DNA of 64,000 bases. It comes from Octopus vulgaris (lineage: Eukaryota). Of this stretch, positions 4,107-60,419 are shown piece after piece. Numbering within the stretch: position 1 is the first letter of the stretch; each line of letters opens with the position of its first letter. A program made the translations under genes and the position numbers. The stretch spans positions 6,076,001 through 6,140,000 of the forward strand of contig OX597815.1 in assembly GCA_951406725.2 (NCBI GenBank), written 5' to 3'. The notes under the pieces were generated by a model. That model worked only from the letters and a program-made list of their open reading frames with translations. It made no database searches and was not told the DNA's origin.

Positions 4107-4355
4107 TGTTGGGTTGGGGCATAATTATTGCTGCTTCTTTTCAACAAATTTTATTCAACAAAAACAATAACATGTAACAAAAACATCTTTAAAAGATTAT
4201 TCCGGAGCATATTCACCCTGTACTTCAATTACTGCTTCCCATTTGCTTGGCAGACGATCAGACCGTCATTTAAAAGTGTTTTTGTTAAATATTGTTCTTG
4301 TTTGTTGAATAAAATTTGTTAAAAAAAGCCGCAATAATTATGCACCAACCCAATA
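4107..4355. mobile_element. Mariner-type MITE, copy 1
   Basis: TIRs TTGGGTTGGGGCATAATTATTGC / GCAATAATTATGCACCAACCCAA; no ORF. Confidence 0.8.
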
Positions 4356-4394
4356 TATAAAATACATTGGTCAAATAGTACATCACCATTTTAT

Positions 4395-4675
4395 ATTGGT
4401 TTGGTGCATAATTATTGCGGCTTTTTTTCAACAAATTTTATTTAACAATATTTAACAAAAACATCTTTAAATGACCGCAACCACTTCACTGACAAAGCTT
4501 CGTGCTGCACGAAGCTTTGTCATCTTTAAATGATTATTCCGGAGCATATTCACCATCTACTGCTTCCCATTTGCTTGGCAGACGATCAGACCGTCATTTA
4601 AAAATGTTTTCGTTAAATAGTGTTACTGTATTTGTTGAATAAAATTTGTTGAAAAAACACCCGCAACAATTATGC
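4395..4675. mobile_element. Mariner-type MITE, copy 2 (tandem; carries 46-bp insert)
   Basis: Near-identical to 4107-4355; left TIR ATTGGTTTGGTGCATAATTATTGCGG; right TIR partial. Confidence 0.75.
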
Positions 4676-5087
4676 AAAGAATATTGCTAATGTCTCAATA
4701 GAAGTCTTAAGGTGTTAAGTCCTGTCTTATTAATAAACAACATAAATTATTGATCTGTTGTTCGCAACAAGTCAATAAAACTTTTTTTTTATAGATTCCA
4801 GTTAACGAATTCCTTTATTTGATATCGTGTCGACGATAGCGTTTCTATTTCTTCGTCTTATTATCGCTTTTCGAAGATTCTTCTGTATTTTTTAATGTCT
4901 TTTAATCCCCGATTAATTAATTCCTATACAACTAATCATTTGTCTTTTCATTCAATTTCAACTCTAATTGACCTTTCAATATACTCAGTCCCTGGGGGGG
5001 AACAGCGTATATTTATGTAATATATCTACTTACATTACTCTGTCTACCTATCTAGCTATCATATTACTAGTTTCACGGTTTCGTATA

Positions 5088-15719: not shown

Positions 15720-17548
15720 TTAGCCATACAGGGCTGCACACAGACGGGACAAATTACAAGGTAGAGCTTTTCTTTTTGGGGACAAAAAAGGGGGTTTGGT
15801 TTTCGATCAAAAGGGATCGTAAAAAGAAAGAAAGAGGAAAGCAAAAAAAGGGAGGATAAGAATAAAAGGAAAAAGAAAAAAAAATCGATCAATAGGGATC
15901 GTTATCACAGAAATGTCAATATAAAGTGTAAAGGGGAGGACAGGTGAGGTTTACCTGTGGAAAGAAAAACCTATGGAAAAGACCACGGTAACCTCGGTCA
16001 ATAATGTCACATGTTACCACATTTATTTGCAAGTAAATAACTCTGTTTTAATTTTTTCCGGGTTCATAGGATCATGCCCAAGGTGGCTTCGTCATTCATA
16101 TGTGCCATCCTTGCTACATTCACCCATCTTTTTTTTAAACATTCGCTAGACAAAACTTGCCTCTTAACTCTCACTTTCCTTTTTCAAGTGATACTTGAAG
16201 AAGTTGATGAGAGATTGACCAGAGAGGAAAGTGCTTGTCTCTAATCCTTTCAGACGCGTCCACCAGATACATTCTTTCGCCATAGCCACAAGGATGATGA
16301 AAATAGCTCTTCCTTCCCGTTTGAAGGAAGGAGGCGTGACGATATTGACGATAGACTCGCTGATAAACCGACACGTCCCACACGTGACAGCAGTCGTTCG
16401 ACATAAGCCCACAGGTGGGAAATTGTTGGACACTGCACGAGTGCGTGCAGAACGGTTTCGTCGCTCTAACCGCATCTGGGGCAGGTCGGCCCCGTGTTTC
16501 TCGAGCCGTGTCTGTAGAGCTTATCCCGAACGGGTAGCGCTTCACGGTAGCACTGCCAGGCCAGGAATCTCTGGAAGTTGTCCATAGGTCCCGGCCCGAA
16601 AGTCGTCTTGAACAGGCAGGTCAGGTATTCCTCGTCGACGCCCAGGTTCGCCCCGGGCTCGACGTCGTACCTCCCCTCCACTAATCCCCTATAGAATGCT
16701 TTGGTTGCGTTGAAGTCACTCAAGGTCGACCCGGGACGGCAGAGTTGCTTGAGAGCAACGCGACACTCGCGGTGCCATTCGCCCTTCCTCGGCCTCTTTT
16801 TGATCCACGACTGCAGTTCGGTCATGGAGACGAGTTGCGGGAAAGCGTGCCTCACAAACGGCGACCACACCTGTTCACCGTCGTCTACGTAGAGCCAGAG
16901 ATGTCGCAGTCTCAGCACGTGTCTGCGCATCATCAACCACGGCATGCCCAGCCCTCCTTTTAGCGGGTGTTGACAGCAAATGGATCGCCTGACCATCGGG
17001 ACGCATCCTTTCCACAAGAAGCGAAAGAAAATGTGTTCTAGTTTGATGATGGTAAGGTCGGGACAAGGCACGACGGTCAGGCGGTAGTAGATGAAGGACG
17101 CGATGTACGAGTTTGCCACCTCCGCCCGACCTTTTAGGGACAGTTTCCTCTCGGCCCACTGCCGGGCGAGAGTGACCGCCCTACTCGTTATCTCGTTCCA
17201 GTTTTTCTCCATTTGGAGGTCCGGACCAAACCAGACCCCGAGCAACTCGACCGGACCGTCGGTCCAGCGTCTCACGGCGGAGGCGCTGGTGTACGGCATG
17301 GGCTTGCTTCTCCAGGTGCCAAGTCGCAAGCCCACTGACTTTTCCCGGTTAATTTTTGCTCCTGTCACCGCTTCGTAGTCTTTCAGTGTCTCGCCGACCA
17401 GGTCGATGTGTTCGTGGCTAGACACTATGACGGTGACGTCGTCCGCGTATGCAGACACGCTCGTCCCGCATCCCAATTCTCGCGGGATGCCTCTCAGAGT
17501 TGCCAGCTTCCGCAATAATGGTTCGAGAGTCAATACGTAGAGAAGCGA
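15720..17548 (-). mobile_element. 5'-truncated L1/Tx1-clade non-LTR retrotransposon inserted in (GATA)n
   Basis: RT motif VSAYADD, thumb LLGVWF, GGLG motif, C-terminal CPRC..ETVLH..C zinc knuckle; GATA repeats abut both ends. Confidence 0.9.
16060..17548 (-). pseudogene. Tx1-like ORF2 remnant (RT C-terminal half plus zinc knuckle); stop at 16466-16468 and later frameshifts
   Basis: ORF 16466..17533 (355 aa) continues in ORFs 16250..16438 and 16164..16475; downstream end approximate. Confidence 0.85.
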
Positions 17549-18149
17549 GATAGATAGATAGATAGGTTGGGGTGGGTTGCAGCTGCCTACCTCGGTTGGT
17601 ATGGCATCGAGGTAGATACAGCCACCCTCGTTAACGGGGACAAAACCCGGATATAAAACACTGGATGATGATGATGATGATATACATATATATACAAAGA
17701 AACATACATCAATATGCTTGCATGTTTGTGCTGTTGCTGTACTTTGGGAGGGTCATTTTGCTAATAAAAGCACGCGCCTTTTTGTTTTCTTATAATTAAT
17801 CATCTACTTAACTAATTAACTAATCTGTTTCTCGACTAATCGCTTGATTAATCCATCAATTAGTTTGATAGAGTCCTTTGGTCGCCCTCTGTGACATCAT
17901 CTATGACGCATCCTCGTCCATTCCAGGTACAACGTCTGTTTTATTACACGATTTCACACAGGGAGACTTTTGCACGGCCATTGCTGTCGATAAATGAGTC
18001 ACCGTTGATTCGATTCGTCTCAGAATCCTTACAAATCGGAGTTACAGTTTATTGTTAAACATTTCCACTGAATGCAACTTCCGTTGTTTAACGTACTTAA
18101 TGGCACAAAAGATGCACCGCAATTTCAGCAGCGAATAGTCAGGTAAAGA

Positions 18150-21138: not shown

Positions 21139-21250
21139 ATGGAAGTGACAAAGGAGCAGATTCAACATATTTTGCTTCATGAGTTCAATAAAGGCAACAA
21201 CGCAACGGAAATTCCGAGGAATATTAATGCAGTCTGTGGGGATTGGACAA
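21139..21250 (+). pseudogene. Mariner transposase N-terminal HTH fragment
   Basis: [35 protein letters not shown] resembles the Mos1-type HTH start. Confidence 0.75.
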
Positions 21251-21382
21251 CGGGAACGTGAAACTCAGGGTCAAAGATTTTTGTGATGTTTTTGCAGCTT
21301 AAAAAACAAAAAGCATATTACTCTACCTTCGGTATTCGAGTACTATCTTATCCACCTTGTTTTGCATTTATGTGTTTACTCG
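21250..21382 (+). mobile_element. Single arm of the 48435-family hammerhead element (core disrupted)
   Basis: ACG-GGAA-CGU-GAAAC-UCAGG-GUC then GCATATTACTCTACC...TTATGTGTTTACTC, homologous to 48590-48720. Confidence 0.7.
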
Positions 21383-21397
21383 TGTGTGTGTATATAT

Positions 21398-21806
<409 letters not shown>

Positions 21807-22417: not shown

Positions 22418-22955
22418 TACACACACATCTAGCCACTAAACCATTTTTTTATTGTCTCTGTTTATTTCTGTGTTTCTTTCTATTGAAGAGCGTTAAACTA
22501 AAACTTATACATCTCGTTGTTGTTTACACACCCGTCTTCGTCTTTTGTTTTGTTTTGTTTTTTTTGTAAATTCCAACTATATATATATATATACGACGGG
22601 CTTCTTTCAGTTTCCGTCTACCAAATCCACTCACAAGGCTTTGGTCGGCCCGAGGCAAAAGTAGAAGACACTTGCGCAAGGTGGCACGCAGTGGGACTGA
22701 AACCGGAACCATGTGGTTGGTATGCGTGTGTATGTGTTTGTGTCTGTGTTTGCTCCCCCACCCCCAACATCACTTGACAACCAATGCTGGTGTGTTTTCG
22801 ACCCCGTAACATAGCGGTTCGGCAAAAATGACCGATAGAATAAGTACTAGGCTTACAAAGAATAAGTCCTGGGGGTCTATTTGCTCGACTAAAGGCCGTG
22901 CTCCAGCATGGCCACAGTCAAATGACTGAAACAAGTAAAAGAATAAAAGAATAAA
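22166..22955. mobile_element. Inverted family A SINE composite (minus copy 22166-22720; plus 3' half ~22725-22955) with nested Penelope-like fragment ~22430-22578
   Basis: Tails point outward at both ends; insert is homologous to 21571-21761 with the hammerhead partly deleted. Confidence 0.75.
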
Positions 22956-22958
22956 ATA

Positions 22959-23062
<104 letters not shown>

Positions 23063-23306
23063 TTAAATGGGATTTAGAAATCAGACCGATTTCCTCATTT
23101 CATGATTTTTTATCTTTATCTGACGAGATAAATTTCGGACGATATGTAATACGTTGTAATATTAAACAATCATTTATATTCACGATGACTCTGAACCATC
23201 TGGTGTTGAAACGATCGTAATGAAAAAATAAATCTTACACCTACGCCTCCGATTTTCAACTTATCATATACACGTGACTGTAGCACTATGTCATTATATT
23301 GGTAAT

Positions 23307-27284: not shown

Positions 27285-28090
27285 AATGTATTTGGCCGAA
27301 AATATATTTAGTCGATAATACGAGGGTGAGTCAAAAAATATTGCCATTTTGTTTAGGACAGGTATAATTACCAACACAGGAACATGTATCATACATCAAA
27401 ATGAAGCTTATTATGAGTTTATTGTTTTTCCTTTTGGCAAGAATGACCCCTTGAGCATCCCAAAAGACAGTCGCCATGATTTTTCCAGATGACTTTTGCA
27501 TCTTGAACTTTTTCGGTGGTGGTGACGTAGAGTGGCACCATTCCATTGACTGCCTCTTTGATTCCGGTTCATAATGATGAACTCATATTTCATCCCCTGT
27601 TACAACCCTTCGAAAGGAGGTGTTGTCTCTTTGACTTTGTAGTGAAGAAGCGACTCAAAGAACAATCAACAGAATTTTACGGGGCAGGGATACATGCTCT
27701 CGTTCAAAGGTGGAACATTGCTTTCGAGAGAAACGGTGACTATGTTGAGAAGTAGGGATGTGATCCACAGAGGACCAGCTTCATTTTGATGTATGATACA
27801 TGTTCCTGTGATGGTAATTATACCTGTCCTAAACAAAATGACATTACTTTTTGACTCACCCTCATATATTTCGTTAAAAATATCTTAGTCATTGGTCGAA
27901 AGTATATTTGGTCGAAAATATATTTGGTCGAAAATATATTTGGTCGAAAATATATTTGGCTGAAAATTATATTTACCATTGGTCAAAAATATATCTGGTT
28001 GAAAATATTTGATTGAAATATATCCGGTCGAAAATATATTTGGTCAGAAACACATTGTGTTGAAAATGTATTTGATCAAAAATATATAAC
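27285..28090. repeat. 16-bp minisatellite (TATTTGGTCGAAAATA) interrupted by the mariner
   Basis: Units present on both sides of the transposon. Confidence 0.8.
27321..27864. mobile_element. Rearranged non-autonomous mariner with ~88-bp inverted ends and TA TSD
   Basis: TA|CGAGGGTGAGTCAAAAA ... TTTTTGACTCACCCTCA|TA; transposase remnants on both strands. Confidence 0.88.
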
Positions 28091-30023: not shown

Positions 30024-30234
30024 TATACTTTATTTAAAGCAGCAGAAAATTCAATAAAAACTGGGTTTCACGTTCCCGCTCGTCCGACAAAAAACTGTCC
30101 GACGAATGGGAACGTGAAACCCAAGTAACAGGTTTTGTTGAATTTTCTGCTGCTTTTAAATAAAGTATATTACTCTACCTCTGGTATTTGAGTACTCTTT
30201 TTTCCACCTTGTTTCACATTTATGTGTTTACTCC

Positions 30235-30236
<2 letters not shown>
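30024..30236 (+). mobile_element. Fold-back hammerhead element in (TA)n (hammerhead 30095-30131)
   Basis: CUGU-CCGACGA-AUG(GGAA)CGU-GAAAC-CCAA-GUA-ACAG; left arm is a shorter inverted copy. Confidence 0.75.
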
Positions 30237-37012: not shown

Positions 37013-37264
37013 GAAGGTGTTTATAAGCCATTTAAAAACACACGGAATCCGTTCGATTCACTTCAACATTTCAATTTAATTTGCCCAAATATTTTCGTCG
37101 CTTTGAGACCGCGACCTGTTCACTGACAAAATTTCGTGTTGCATTTTGTCAGTGAACAGGTCATGGTCTCAAAGCGATGAAAATATTTTGACACAAATTA
37201 AATTTAAATGTTGAAGTGAATCTAACAGTTTCTGTGTGTTTTTAAATGGCTTATACACACCTTC
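37013..37264. repeat. Fold-back element, ~120-bp arms, ~10-bp loop
   Basis: GAAGGTGT...CACTGACAAAAT / ATTTTGTCAGTG...ACACCTTC. Confidence 0.85.
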
Positions 37265-44776: not shown

Positions 44777-45909
44777 TGGCTCATATGAGCACAATGTAGA
44801 CACATGCGTGCGCATATATATAGACATAATATACACATTCATACACATATATAGGTACAATGCACACACATATACGTGTGTGTGTGTGTACGTGTGTGTG
44901 TGTGTGTGTACGTAAAGATGCAATACATATACACACAAGGATACACATATATAGGCACAATACGCGCGCGCGAAAATACGATTAAATATATATGCATCCA
45001 CAACACACACACATACAAAGATACAATACACACACAAACGCAATTTAGTAGAAAGACTGAGAACACCTTATCACTAAGTTGACTGACATAGCTTTGAGAA
45101 ACAGCTGAAGGAATTCTGTACTGAAACATAGAAGAGGGTGAGAGACAATTTCGCGGTGGAGAGAAACAAGGCTTTGTATGGACAACTGGATGGCTTTGTT
45201 TGGGATTCAATTCGCCAACTTTTTATAACACAATGGAGTTGTTCTAGAAAGTTCGACCAGGCTATTTAACGCGAAAATTTTAGCTCACTTGGCTTTGATT
45301 AGTCGTGATATGTTCGAGTAGACGTTAATGCCTTTTATGACGGCACATTTTTTCATAACTAGCCTTGCCTTTTAAGGCAGTATGCTATGCCGTGGCAACC
45401 TGACTGTAACAGTTGAAAACTCAGCAGGAGCCTTGCTACAATGGTTTCTAACATATTTCACAATACAAAGTCGCATTGTTAGCGGGCAGAATGCAGTCAA
45501 TTAAGATCAACTCCCAGCTCCTCCCTGAGACATTATTTTAACCATGGAGGGATAAGGACAAAGATGACAACAGCGGGATTCGAAATCAGAAAGTAAAGAG
45601 GAGCAACTAAATACTGCGATGCATTTTGTTCGAACGCTTAATTAATTCGGCCAATCCACCTCACCCCCACCCCGAGCAGAAAAATGTTTGAGAGAGGTTT
45701 TATAACAAAGAGGTCGTCGTGTGTTTGTTGCCTTGGATGTAGGAATATAGTCGTAACATGGGCCAAAACGAGGGACTTCGCAACATTTACAGTCAGCCAT
45801 TTTGTGAAGAATTATATCGCAACACATTAACAGCAGTTCACTTGCGAGTGTTTTATATCAACTGTACCAGATGTATTTACTACCACCACCACCACCACAA
45901 AGGGTGATT

Positions 45910-46162
45910 ATAATCAAAATAAGCAACAAGGATATCCAAGGTAGTGTAGTACACTCGTTTCATGCTACTTCATTTTATTAAACACTGCAAGTATTACATC
46001 ACTTTTAAAATGTCGAGCAATCTTCAGTTCTATTCTATATGCGGCTGAAGATTGCTCGACATTTTAAAACTGATGTAATACTTACAGTGTTTAATAAAAT
46101 GAAGTAGCATGAAACGATTGTACTACACTACCTTGGATATCGTTGTTGCTTATTTTGATTAT
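45910..46162. mobile_element. Fold-back element (~118-bp arms) with extended-stem-II hammerhead motif (46041-46126, +)
   Basis: GCGG-CUGAAGA-UUGCU...AGCAU-GAAAC-GAUU-GUA-CUAC; left arm ends at TCTTCAG; related single arm at ~59508-59580. Confidence 0.75.
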
Positions 46163-46177
46163 GTATGTATGTATATG

Positions 46178-47310: not shown

Positions 47311-48391
47311 TATACGCAACTGCCGCTGTTCCACCCTCCACCCACCATAGCCAGGTTATTAATTATAATCAATCCGATACACAACTCAATTAACTCCAAA
47401 CTGGAAGATAGTCAAAATAATATAATAGATATAAATAACCATGAGATCAATGCTTTCCAATCCGGGGTTATATGATTCGTTCCAGTAGTCACTAAGAACC
47501 GAGATTACAATGGTACCAGTAAATTAGATTGAAGATTAGCGATGCTGGCCGTTTCGATTTGTCCTCAAAGAGGGTCGAGGGGTAATGGGCTAACGAACGA
47601 AATGAGACGATAGGGCGCAGCCGCTTGCACGCTAAGGATTTGGCATGGCTGACTGAACATGTCAAATCCTCAGCATGGCTGACTGGACATTTGGCTTGTT
47701 TTGGCGATAGTACGTTTTGGCACTGGAGGCAATCACATGCGCGCGAGCATGCACTTACACGCATGTACTCAGACGCATGCGCGTTCAGAAGTATACACAT
47801 TAACATGACATACTAATACACGAAGATACATTATCTTCGTGTATTAGTATGCCCTGTTTATGTTGTATAATTATACAACAAAATTCTCAAATTTTCCACT
47901 AGACTTCGTGTTCTAACTTGTATCCTATCGTGTGAATTATTAATTCAATATGTCTTATATTATGTTGATGTTTTATATTTTGCTTGTGTATATATATATA
48001 TTAGCATTTTGAATATTTCTAAATACCTACGAGTTTTATCTTATACCATATCGACATTTTATATCTATTTTTATATCTATTTGTATATCTATTTATGTAT
48101 TTATATATTTATAATGCCAACGTATTTTTAAGTATTTTAAAATATTTTTAAATATTAAATATTTATATGTTTATATATTTGTATGTTTTGATACTCTATT
48201 ATCTGGAACTTTATATTGATTTATTGAGGTCCAATGAAAGTACACACATATATATTGAATAATCTATTGGATATTGGATAATGTGTCATGTTCCTCTAGT
48301 TTTCCGCTGGTATTGCCTCCATTGAAATTATAAAATGGAACTTAGCTCAATTAGAGCACGAGCCTTGTTAAAGTTAAAAATCTCTACATAG

Positions 48392-48434
<43 letters not shown>

Positions 48435-48436
<2 letters not shown>

Positions 48437-48720
48437 GGAGTAAACACATAAATGTGAAACGAGGTGGAAAAAGAGTACTCAAATAGCAGTGGTAGAGTAA
48501 TATGCTTTATTTAAAGCAGCAGAAAATTCAACAAAACCTGTTACTCTGAGTTTCACGTTGCCGTTCGTCGAGCAAAAACTGTCCGACGAACGGCAACGTG
48601 AAACTCAGAGTAACAGGTTTTGTTGAATTTTCTGCTGCTTTAAATAAAGCATATTACTCTACCACTGGTATTTGAGTACTCTTTTTTTCACCTCGTTTCA
48701 CATTTATGTGTTTACTCCGG
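48435..48720. mobile_element. Near-perfect palindromic hammerhead element flanked by (TA)n
   Basis: ~136-bp arms CCGGAGTAAAC...TTCGTCG / CGACGAA...GTTTACTCCGG. Confidence 0.88.
48579..48616 (+). ncRNA. Minimal type I hammerhead ribozyme (U4C core variant)
   Basis: CUGU-CCGACGA-ACG(GCAA)CGU-GAAAC-UCAGA-GUA-ACAG; all three stems pair; GNRA loop II. Confidence 0.75.
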
Positions 48721-50417: not shown

Positions 50418-50665
50418 TATAATTATCAGTATAATTATAATTAGGGTTCAGCAAAAATAATTTGTTTCACCACATACCGAAATTTAGAAATAGCAGTTAA
50501 AACTAGCTATTTCTCTACCATAAGAAAATCTCTCGGACAACAATACTCAACAACCCATGCAGGCAAAGGGAGAAATAGGTAGTTTTAACTGCTATTTCTA
50601 AATTTCAGTATGTGGTGAAGCAAATTTTTAGCTGAACCCTAATTATAATTATATTCATAATTACA
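50418..50665. repeat. Fold-back element (~100-bp arms) near (TA)n
   Basis: TAATTAGGGTTCAGC...CTATTTCTC / GAGAAATAG...GCTGAACCCTAATTA. Confidence 0.8.
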
Positions 50666-57185: not shown

Positions 57186-57408
57186 AAACAAAAATATATA
57201 TATATATATATAATACTACAAAATTAGAGAATGGAGAAACATACTTAAATCAGTAAAACATCAACTATCCGATGATACTCAATCCATACTTTAATACACC
57301 ATTACATATGAGTAAAGGCAATATATAAAATGAAATGAGGTATACAGTAATAGTAAAAAGATAAAGAGATATAAGTAAAAAATTTCAAATATAATATGCA
57401 AATAAATC

Positions 57409-57524
57409 AAAACTGACAGCTGTTTCGGCAGTGAGGACAGTCATACCTCATTTAACCTATAAGCCATAAAGGCAGGTATAAATGAGGCATTAACAAGGAT
57501 GCCCCACGGCCTCTTCAGAGAATT
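57409..57524 (-). ncRNA. Mirror copy of the 58121-58236 hammerhead
   Basis: Reverse complement within the left arm (TGACAGCTGTTTCGGC...GCCTCTTCAG). Confidence 0.8.
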
Positions 57525-57736
57525 AAATTAAATTTGTTATAATAGTGAAAAATATTATATAATCATATACATATAAATATAAAAATATAGAAATGTAAAA
57601 TATAAAAACTTATACATCATAATGCTACACTTATATAATATAATACCGAAATAACTATATTATTTCGAAATAACTATATTATTTCGATCTTGAAAGGATG
57701 GACTTGGTGCTAACTTAACTGTATCTATTTTTATTA

Positions 57737-57785
<49 letters not shown>

Positions 57786-58120
57786 AGTAATTTTTATTAA
57801 CTTTTATAGCTTTAGAATTTTATGAACTGTACCACGGATTTAATTATTATTTTTCATCTCCATATGTGTTAGCCTTTTTTTATAAAAAAAACTATTAGCC
57901 AAATATGTATAATATCGGTACTTATTAATATTAATATATACACTGTTATATATTTTGTTTTATTTTGTTCTGTTTACCTTCCTTTTTTGTACAAATGTGT
58001 ATTATATTATATAAGTGTAGCATTATGATGTATAAGTTTTTATATTTTACATTTCTATATTTTTATATTTATATGTATATGATTATATAATATTTTTCAC
58101 TATTATAACAAATTTAATTT

Positions 58121-58236
58121 AATTCTCTGAAGAGGCCGTGGGGCATCCTTGTTAATGCCTCATTTATACCTGCCTTTATGGCTTATAGGTTAAATGAGGT
58201 ATGACTGTCCTCACTGCCGAAACAGCTGTCAGTTTT
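58121..58236 (+). ncRNA. Type I hammerhead ribozyme with long branched stem II
   Basis: CUGAAGA (58127-58133), GGC...GCC, GAAAC-AGCU-GUC (site after 58230); palindromic stem III ACAGCUGU; short, interrupted stem I. Confidence 0.8.
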
Positions 58237-58602
58237 GATTTATTTGCATATTATATTTGAAATTTTTTACTTATATCTCTTTATCTTTTTACTATTACTG
58301 TATACCTCATTTCATTTTATATATTGCCTTTACTCATATGTAATGGTGTATTAAAGTATGGATTGAGTATCATCGGATAGTTGATGTTTTACTGATTTAA
58401 GTATGTTTCTCCATTCTCTAATTTTGTAGTATTAATTTACGGTAATATTATTACCTTTACCCATTTAATACAATAGATGAACTGATTGTTTGACAATTTT
58501 TAACATCTATGTATTAATTTTGTTGGGTACCTATCTAGCAGTATATTGGATATATATTATCCCATGGTGGGTTGAATTTTCAACCCCTATCTCATTTTAT
58601 AA

Positions 58603-58869: not shown

Positions 58870-59929
58870 GGCTTACTGACACTTGTGGTGGTGGCACAGG
58901 AAAAACACGTGCCCCCACCTACTACCAGCCATAAGTTTTCCATTTGTCATAGAATAAGAGAGAGTGATATTGTAGGAGGAGGAAGAGGAGGAGATGTTGA
59001 TATGGTTTGTGTTTCTTTCAATTAATTTTAAATATAACAAAGAATTTAGTAAAATAACTTAGTTATCGTTAAGCTAGTGTTAGGGACATAAATTGTGACT
59101 AAGGTTTAATGGAAGATTTTAATTCAAAACTTATGAAAATAAGACATTTGAATTACAGAGCCAGAGGCAGTTTCACCTGGGTGGGTAATGAAAGGGTGAA
59201 GGTAAATGAAGAGGGAGGTGGTTAACGAGTAATTTATAATGACAGTTGTAATTAGACCACACACCAGAACCCTTTTTGAAAAACTTATAACAGGAAACAA
59301 ATGTAATTTGTTGGTGGCACAAAAATGAAATTAGTTTACAACTGCACCAGACATGTAGCTCCAAATATCTTTGATCTTTTACTTGCTTCAGTCATTAAAA
59401 TGCGGCCATGCTGGGGCAATGACTTAAAGAATTTTTAGTTGCTTGTGTCAAACCCAGTACTTATTTCTTTTTTCAAGCCTGGTACTTATACATATATATA
59501 TATATATATAACCAAAAATAAGCAACAAGAATGGATCCGGTAGTTTAGTACAATTGTTTCATACTATAACAATTTATTAAAAGCTGCAAATATTACAGCA
59601 GATATAATATGTCAAGTATTCTTCAGCTAATTTCATATAGGTTTTCCAATAATGTAAAGTTCTCAAATCAATTAGTAACATCCTAGAGAAGGTAAATATA
59701 CCGATAAGGCTGTAGATATGAATTTCAGGAACTTGAAGTAGGATGCCAAGCAAACCAAAATTAAGTTCATATAGGTTTTCCAACAATGTAAAGTTCTCAA
59801 AACAATTAGTAACATCCTAGAGAAATATATATATATATATACATAAGGATAAGATCGTTAATTTAAATTAAATATCGATCTTATCAAGTGGTCAGCATGG
59901 GAATAAAAACCTTCAAAGGTAATAATTAT

Positions 59930-60104
59930 TATTAAAATTATAACTTAGAGTATCTACGAGATACCGCCATGCTGAAAATAGTAGCCAAAATCTGACTCTA
60001 AAACCTTGTGCTGTATGAACATTTAATGTGGTTTTAGAGTCAGATTTTGGCTGCTATATTCAGCATGGCAGTATCTCGTAGATACCCTAAGTTATGATTT
60101 TAAT
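59930..60104. repeat. Fold-back element (~75-bp arms) abutting (TA)n
   Basis: TAACTTAGAGTATCTACGAGATAC...CTCTAAAACC / GGTTTTAGAG...GTATCTCGTAGATACCCTAAGTTA. Confidence 0.85.
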
Positions 60105-60419
60105 ATATATATATATATACAGCATATATTTTTATGAGCTAATAGTTTCATGTGACAAAAATGGCTCAGACAGCATTTCATAACATGTCTGGTACCTTTT
60201 TGCAATCCTCGGGCTCTGCCCACATAGCATAATCAGTTAAAACATATACATATGTATATATATATAGCTCATTATGCTATGTATATATATATATTATTAT
60301 TACATATTTGGGATACTTTTTACATTGCATTAGGAAAGTGTAATATAGTTCTGATAACATAGAATACTTGTTATTCCCTAAGATTTAAAAAAATATATAT
60401 ATATATACATATATATATA

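What the first reader, a model, noticed from the sequence alone, without database searches (positions are those of the whole stretch)
45910..46162. Inversion breakpoints coincide with the 5' edge of the hammerhead in unrelated families
Seen: the left arm here ends exactly at TCTTCAG, the complement of CUGAAGA. In the sequence-unrelated 48435 element it ends at TTCGTCG, the complement of CGACGAA, and at 30024 it ends in stem I. The inverted arm in the first two therefore lacks the 5' strand of stem I. Inference: the folded ribozyme stalls the RT or primes fold-back synthesis, so the ribozyme would set where palindromes form. The 57211 element does not follow this rule.
Basis: partly seen in the sequence, partly recalled or inferred. 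Interest (0 to 1): 0.7.

Follow-up and report, generated by a model that had tools for sequence, protein, structure and literature searches.

The report
Penelope fold-back breaks near hammerhead core
This hairpin-shaped repeat is likely an ordinary head-to-head insertion of a Penelope-like jumping gene, and in 43 similar insertions from other genomes the break fell at the start of the ribozyme in only 7, so the ribozyme at most nudges the break point and does not set it.

Summary
Observation partly confirmed. The 45910-46162 palindrome is real: two 118-nt arms, the left ending exactly at the complement of hammerhead position C3.

The structures match the known head-to-head ends of Penelope-like elements (PLEs): minimal type-I hammerhead, (TA)n-type target, one-sided tail. 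No PLE reading frame was found in the window.

I tested the rule on 92 metagenome loci picked by one arm only; 43 had an inverted arm (20 families). Short-arm breaks ran from +49 to -456 (median -44), and no two copies of a family shared a junction (0 of 76 pairs). Seven of the 35 arms that reached the core broke at -4..+1 against 2.5 expected (p 0.011-0.018; 0.13 allowing any window). A -17..+1 window (9 against 8.2) and the long arms showed no excess.

Verdict: the rule is refuted; a narrow two- to three-fold preference at C3 is possible but unconfirmed. If real, a helix I formed between two RNA copies could explain it (inferred).

The parts
45910..46027 (-). Short, inverted arm of family A; ends on the complement of hammerhead C3 (offset 0)
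45901..45909 (-). Likely short piece of the family's 3' tail on the left arm only
   Evidence: resembles the loose-end letters behind 46162 in run X1 (18 contigs, agreement 0.68); inference
46028..46044 (+). 17-nt spacer: 5' extension of the long arm (family-like from about 46032-46034, with a 5-nt duplication at the junction), holding a weak 5' strand of helix I
46045..46128 (+). Minimal type-I hammerhead: core 46045-46051, 59-nt helix II region, GAAA 46111-46114, palindromic helix III (ACAATTGT in most family contigs), predicted cut after 46122, 3' strand of helix I
   Evidence: G46116A in about 72% of summed depth in X1; cleavage untested
46045..46162 (+). Long (sense) arm of family A, ending in a (GTAT)n microsatellite
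59515..59640 (-). Single, non-inverted family A relative (79%), C3 at 59626, continuing upstream and ending in (TA)n
48435..48720 (.). Family B palindrome B1 in (TA)n; core CCGACGA at 48583; junction +1 raw, -3/-8 curated; both arms full length
30024..30236 (.). Family B palindrome B2 in (TA)n; C3 30099; junction -3/-9; 66-nt tail on the right arm only
21249..21381 (+). Single family B arm cut inside the ribozyme (about +7), joined to a mariner HTH remnant
57211..58434 (.). Family D palindrome, 436-nt identical arms, C3 58127, breaks -128/-480, about 170 further nt on the right before (TA)n
37013..37264 (.). Palindrome C with a candidate G3-C8 hammerhead (position 3 at 37152), breaks -9/-19; may instead be a mariner-derived element

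Best explanation
The 45910 hairpin is likely a routine head-to-head insertion of a Penelope-like retroelement, made of two variably shortened copies of its hammerhead-bearing 3' end, and in comparable insertions the joint falls anywhere from inside the ribozyme to hundreds of bases upstream, with at most a weak preference for the first core base. Shown: the anatomy, the spread of breaks, and that joints differ from copy to copy within comparison families. Inferred from published PLE biochemistry: the element's protein nicks both strands of an AT-rich target and primes on both; the two copies end early and are joined, or the first cDNA snaps back on itself, often at a micro-palindrome. The apparent rule in this window arises because the ribozyme lies only 117-137 nt from the 3' end, where many truncations fall; because only palindromes with both cores are noticed; because two of the three supporting cases share one junction; and possibly from a small real excess at C3.
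For: Anatomy matches PLE insertions with an adjacent inverted 5'-truncated copy, one-sided tail and (TA)n bias (PMC8557442 passages; PMC3846280 passages). The lizard PLE protein cuts and extends both strands, has two start sites that make the tail, and ribozyme mutants do not change product size (PMC11167929). Comparison set: 43 of 92 loci inverted, short breaks +49 to -456, median -44; one loosely clustered 14-member family has 10 breaks from +46 to -208; 0 of 76 within-family pairs share both breaks within 3 nt. Spacers of 2 nt or less in 6 of 43 against 2.3% expected, p 4e-4, fit joining or self-priming at micro-palindromes, already proposed in PMC3846280. Focal family: 2694, 1929, 139 and 87 contigs laid in four runs; the best-supported upstream loose ends run into ordinary upstream family sequence, not an inverted core.
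Against: 7 of 35 short arms at -4..+1 against 2.5 expected (p 0.011-0.018) and 2 of 3 sure window families there: the break is probably not fully blind to the core. B1 and B2 share both breaks, which no comparison pair does. No PLE reading frame was found in the window (19 of 129 open frames scanned with Pfam). The comparison set comes from other organisms and one core type. One search did not list the focal junction itself and hid 155 loose-end rows, so it is insensitive to inversions.
Confidence: 0.72

Rival explanations
1. A real, narrow stop site on top of the broad spread: minimal PLE hammerheads fold as dimers, so the 5' strand of helix I of one RNA copy would pair with the 3' strand of the other copy. 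That helix would still be intact when the first-primed polymerase reaches C3 and would stop it there, while the second polymerase finds it already opened and runs on. This would add to the best explanation, not replace it.
For: Excess confined to -4..+1 and to short arms (7 of 35 against 2.5; long arms 1 of 43 against 1.7); the 7 cases lie in 6 families; no pile-up in 700 simulations (7.0% estimated, 8.6% true); window families A (0) and B (-3) fall in the same bin; dimeric folding of minimal hammerheads (PMC4209133) and a predicted protein dimer (PMC11167929).
Against: Any 6-nt window reaches 7 in 13% of null sets, and a cluster of 5 lies at -53..-58; -17..+1 shows no excess; the window edges were partly chosen after seeing the data; ribozyme mutants did not alter product size in vitro; minimum-energy cofolds of two arms did not give the dimeric ribozyme; helix I of family A is weak.
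Confidence: 0.25
2. Inherited centres: some families (B, perhaps C) would spread from a palindromic master, with arms re-homogenised by snap-back copying or gene conversion, so the centre reflects one old event and perhaps selection for the smallest unit with one whole ribozyme.
For: B1 and B2 share both breaks while each has its own variants in both arms; C and the 4389-4522 element share a centre at about -17 to -19; PMC3846280 notes one copy that may have given rise to an identically organised insertion.
Against: Family A contigs mostly continue upstream as non-inverted sequence; 0 of 76 comparison pairs share a junction; a palindromic transcript is predicted to bury the ribozyme in one long hairpin; B2 has the one-sided tail of a fresh PLE insertion.
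Confidence: 0.4
3. One reading: the folded ribozyme stalls the polymerase or primes fold-back and so fixes the palindrome centre in unrelated families.
For: Exact end at C3 in A, -3 in B, -9 in candidate C; weak excess in the comparison set.
Against: 36 of 43 comparison breaks elsewhere; D at -128; the A-family joint at +40/+75; B3 cut at about +7; dual opposite-strand hammerheads 100-700 bp apart reported in Schistosoma, orientation not stated (PMC4209133).
Confidence: 0.04
4. B and C are TA-targeting DNA-transposon miniatures whose hammerhead-like folds are decayed or accidental, so they say nothing about reverse transcription.
For: B has U4C and C needs a swapped pair plus an extra base; the relaxed descriptor gives 1.3 chance hits per window; mariner remnants are in the window; C shares its centre with an element whose ends look mariner-like (recalled).
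Against: B forms helices I-III with conserved GAAA and GUA in both copies, has a one-sided tail and a single 5'-truncated copy; U4C is a described natural variant (PMC3088659 passage); an extra base after position 9 is typical of PLE hammerheads.
Confidence: 0.12

Closest known systems
Insertion unit of endonuclease-bearing Penelope-like elements (Craig et al. 2021, PMC8557442; Arkhipova et al. 2013, PMC3846280; passages read)
   Same: Head-to-head inverted 5'-truncated copy, tail at one end only, (TA)n or AT-rich target, hammerhead near the 3' end, palindromes at the junction read as self-priming.
   Different: No reading frame here; the passages read do not relate the break point to the ribozyme core; tails here are 66 nt (B) and about 170 nt (D) rather than 30-40.
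Minimal type-I hammerheads of metazoan PLEs (Cervera and de la Pena 2014, PMC4209133; parts 1-2 of 4 read)
   Same: Short helix I, large helix II, palindromic helix III, extra base after position 9, mostly single truncated copies, some pairs on opposite strands.
   Different: Family A has a 59-nt helix II region; B has U4C; C has G3-C8, where that paper reports U3-A8.
Anolis Poseidon PAc in vitro mechanism (Frangieh et al. 2024, PMC11167929; parts 1-2 of 4 read)
   Same: Both strands nicked and extended, two start sites giving the tail, AT-rich target.
   Different: cDNA 3' ends and inversion junctions are not mapped in the parts read; clade of the window's elements unknown.
Non-LTR retrozymes (bioRxiv 10.64898/2026.07.22.740005; part 1 of 5 read)
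   Same: Non-coding, type-I hammerhead, PLE-derived.
   Different: Retrozymes are tandem direct repeats; these are inverted pairs or single copies.

Membership tests
Penelope-like element (EN+) insertion | Telomerase-like RT plus GIY-YIG endonuclease reading frame | tested here: inconclusive
   None among 19 of 129 open frames scanned with Pfam; no genome held; short truncated ends are expected to lack it.
Penelope-like element (EN+) insertion | Type-I hammerhead near the 3' end | tested here: met
   A, B, D: position 3 lies 117, 137 and 307 nt from the arm end; descriptor hits 9 against 1.3 by chance.
Penelope-like element (EN+) insertion | Inverted 5'-truncated copy, head to head | tested here: met
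Penelope-like element (EN+) insertion | Tail at one end only | tested here: met
   B2 66 nt, D about 170 nt; only a 9-nt candidate in A; B1 has it on both arms.
Penelope-like element (EN+) insertion | (TA)n or AT-rich target | tested here: met
   B1, B2, D, 59626 copy; family A loose ends behind 46159-46162 in X6 and X15; the focal copy ends in (GTAT)n.
Minimal type-I hammerhead ribozyme | Canonical core CUGANGA / GAAA / UH | tested here: met
   A and D; not canonical in B (U4C) or C (G3-C8).
Minimal type-I hammerhead ribozyme | Self-cleavage as a dimer | not testable with these tools
   needs a bench assay
Non-LTR retrozyme | At least two tandem direct units with a hammerhead | tested here: not met
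   No such tandem array in the window.
Tc1/mariner miniature element | Whole palindrome copied as a unit with one fixed centre | tested here: inconclusive
   Not so for family A; two B copies share a centre; not tested genome-wide for B or C.

The most novel reading that the evidence does not exclude
PLE inversion junctions carry a footprint of the dimeric hammerhead: helix I formed between two RNA copies stops the first-primed reverse transcriptase at the first core base, giving a narrow hotspot in short arms across unrelated families and animals. That would be genomic evidence that minimal PLE hammerheads fold as dimers during integration.
Probability: 0.2. Interest if true: 0.62.

Novelty: new member of a known kind. 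Interest (0 to 1): 0.3.

Why it matters
The role of PLE hammerheads is open (PMC8557442 says their function is still unclear; PMC11167929 found cleavage dispensable in vitro), as is the origin of the inverted copies. A stop site at the helix I border would show that the fold exists on the template during copying and would be cheap to test in any assembled genome. As measured here the effect is small and uncertain, and the structures themselves are known.

Tried and rejected
No whole genome is held, so the genome-wide test in this organism was not possible. Rfam showed no hammerhead in the rows listed. A family A motif found 0 metagenome loci. A head-to-head core pattern gave 15 viral loci, none with arms extending more than 4 bases: chance. 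No RNA holder listed for the stretch. Laying contigs on the spacer plus sense arm did not recover the focal junction, and depth falls at both ends of the reference, so it gives no truncation profile. Junction microhomology against family members was 0-3 nt in 13 cases, several with loose alignments: uninformative. Breaks downstream of the core (8) did not gather at the predicted cut site, though short arms are under-detected. Arm-versus-relative identity (21 of 32) was set aside because some end-free alignments were too short. Snap-back through helix I and stalling by a monomeric fold were rejected on geometry (inference). Rows dropped from the comparison: 49 of 92 loci with no inverted arm found, 20 of the 92 having under 300 nt upstream; 5 loci were added by hand to the 38 automatic ones (L019, L065, L074, L084, L092) and L048 was moved from 0 to -10 on family evidence. 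Look-ups of earlier findings by place, by two sequences and by the first word set returned nothing.

Full report
Setting. The window is microsatellite-rich animal DNA with SINE, mariner and LINE remnants; the repeats look cephalopod-like, from recall only. No genome is held. Offsets below are relative to hammerhead position 3 (0 = C3, negative = upstream); 'short' is the inner end of the paired arms and 'long' is short minus spacer.

The observation. The focal element has arms 45910-46027 and 46045-46162 with 4 mismatches and a 17-nt spacer; the left arm stops exactly at C3. The right arm holds a minimal type-I hammerhead: CTGAAGA, a 59-nt helix II region, GAAA, a short helix III and a weak helix I. 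The 48435 and 30024 elements are one family (88%) with core CCGACGA. The first ends at TTCGTCG in a plain alignment (+1), but pairs on to -3 past two transitions, which makes its junction the same as that of the second (-3/-8 and -3/-9). The 57211 element breaks at -128/-480. I found one more candidate, 37013-37264, with a G3-C8 core and breaks at -9/-19; it shares its centre with the element at 4389-4522 and may be transposon-derived. A single B arm at 21249 is cut at about +7, and single hammerhead copies at 23120 and 59626 run about 60 nt or more upstream.

What it is. Head-to-head arms, 3' ends in (TA)n, a hammerhead 117-137 nt from the end in A and B, and one-sided tails (B2, D) are the published anatomy of Penelope-like element insertions (PMC8557442 passages; PMC3846280 passages; PMC4209133 parts 1-2). 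The lizard element's protein nicks and extends both strands and starts at two sites, and ribozyme mutants do not change the product (PMC11167929 parts 1-2). PMC3846280 already reads junction palindromes as self-priming. Membership rests on anatomy: no PLE frame was found in 19 of 129 frames scanned.

The focal family elsewhere. Contigs of four public runs were laid on 46028-46165 at 80% likeness: 2694, 1929, 139 and 87 records. The best-supported upstream loose ends (33 and 15 contigs in X1; 32, 11 and 14 in X6) continue into a shared upstream sequence like that of the 59626 copy, not into an inverted core, so the family is not one amplified palindrome. The only opposite-strand joint listed is 46085 to 46120 (+40/+75; one contig in each of two runs; orientation not given). 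The test is insensitive: the focal junction itself was not listed and 155 loose-end rows were hidden.

A fair test in other genomes. Nearly all read as PLE-type minimal hammerheads. An inverted upstream arm was found in 38 automatically and 5 more by a second pass or by BLAST; 20 of the 92 had under 300 nt upstream. The 43 fall in 20 families, and flanks showed no duplicated locus among the 40 with enough flank. Short breaks run from +49 to -456, median -44; 8 lie inside or downstream of the core and 26 beyond -17. One family has ten different breaks from +46 to -208, and 0 of 76 within-family pairs share a junction. The general rule therefore fails.

What remains. Of 35 short arms that reach the core, 7 break at -4..+1 against 2.5 expected from the upstream hazard (p 0.011; 0.018 under an exponential null; 0.13 for any 6-nt window); 9 against 4.9 at -10..+1 (p 0.045); 9 against 8.2 at -17..+1 (p 0.44). 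Long arms show 1 of 43 against 1.7. I checked the near-zero cases against family members and moved L048 from 0 to -10. Simulation shows no estimator pile-up at C3. A second cluster of 5 lies at -53..-58. Spacers of 2 nt or less are in clear excess (6 of 43 against 2.3%), which fits joining or snap-back at micro-palindromes; L018 is centred on a native four-base palindrome at the core's edge, so local sequence could explain part of the excess.

Mechanism. Shown: anatomy, spread of breaks, independent junctions in comparison families. Inferred: two-strand priming or cDNA snap-back, early termination, joining. A dimeric fold would avoid this: the 5' strand of helix I would be held by the other RNA, intact until the first polymerase arrives at C3, which would also explain an excess in short arms only. 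This is a hypothesis with weak support; minimum-energy cofolds did not produce the dimer. For family B an inherited centre is the likelier reason for the shared junction, though the one-sided tail of B2 points the other way.

Novelty. The architecture is known. A relation between break point and core position was not found in the passages read or in the listings of searches; the library lacks most subscription papers and no supplements were read. Earlier scan notes on other genomes report the same architecture and mild position preferences; they are unchecked leads. Verdict: real but ordinary structures, rule refuted, small hotspot open; interest 0.3.

Noticed in passing
window 37143-37200 (+) and mirror 37075-37132 (-): Candidate hammerhead with swapped G3-C8 pair and an extra base after position 9; helix II is better in the left arm and helix I in the right.
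   Followed up: partly
window 4109-4680: Complex tandem and inverted element with mariner-like ends (recalled) and a perfect 16-bp hairpin at 4490-4522 whose sequence matches the centre of palindrome C.
   Followed up: partly
window 59842-60109: Palindrome of 80-nt arms in (TA)n with about 85 extra nt on one side and no hammerhead found in the arms; PLE-like anatomy.
   Followed up: partly
window 59620-59824 (-): Upstream of the single family A copy a 60-70 nt stretch is repeated; the first copy stops just where the core would begin.
   Followed up: no
window 46044-46076 in runs X6 and X4: A 33-nt direct go-back joint returning to position -1 of the core, seen in one contig of X6 and as a loose end in X4.
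   Followed up: no
window 23059-23245 (+): Single hammerhead candidate with an 81-nt helix II region, starting 61 nt upstream of the core right after (TA)n.
   Followed up: partly
window 21572-21762 and 22428-22578: Related elements between microsatellites with a degenerate hammerhead-like core, starting about 60-70 nt upstream of it.
   Followed up: no
window 27299-27886, 21140-21245, 16469-17752: Mariner transposase remnants (PF01359, PF17906) and a decayed reverse transcriptase frame (PF00078, below cut-off).
   Followed up: no
L018, L021, L023, L029, L030, L064: Near-perfect palindromes with 0-2 nt spacers, in excess of independent truncation.
   Followed up: partly
window 50430-50653 and 47789-47872: Further palindromes without a recognisable hammerhead.
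   Followed up: no
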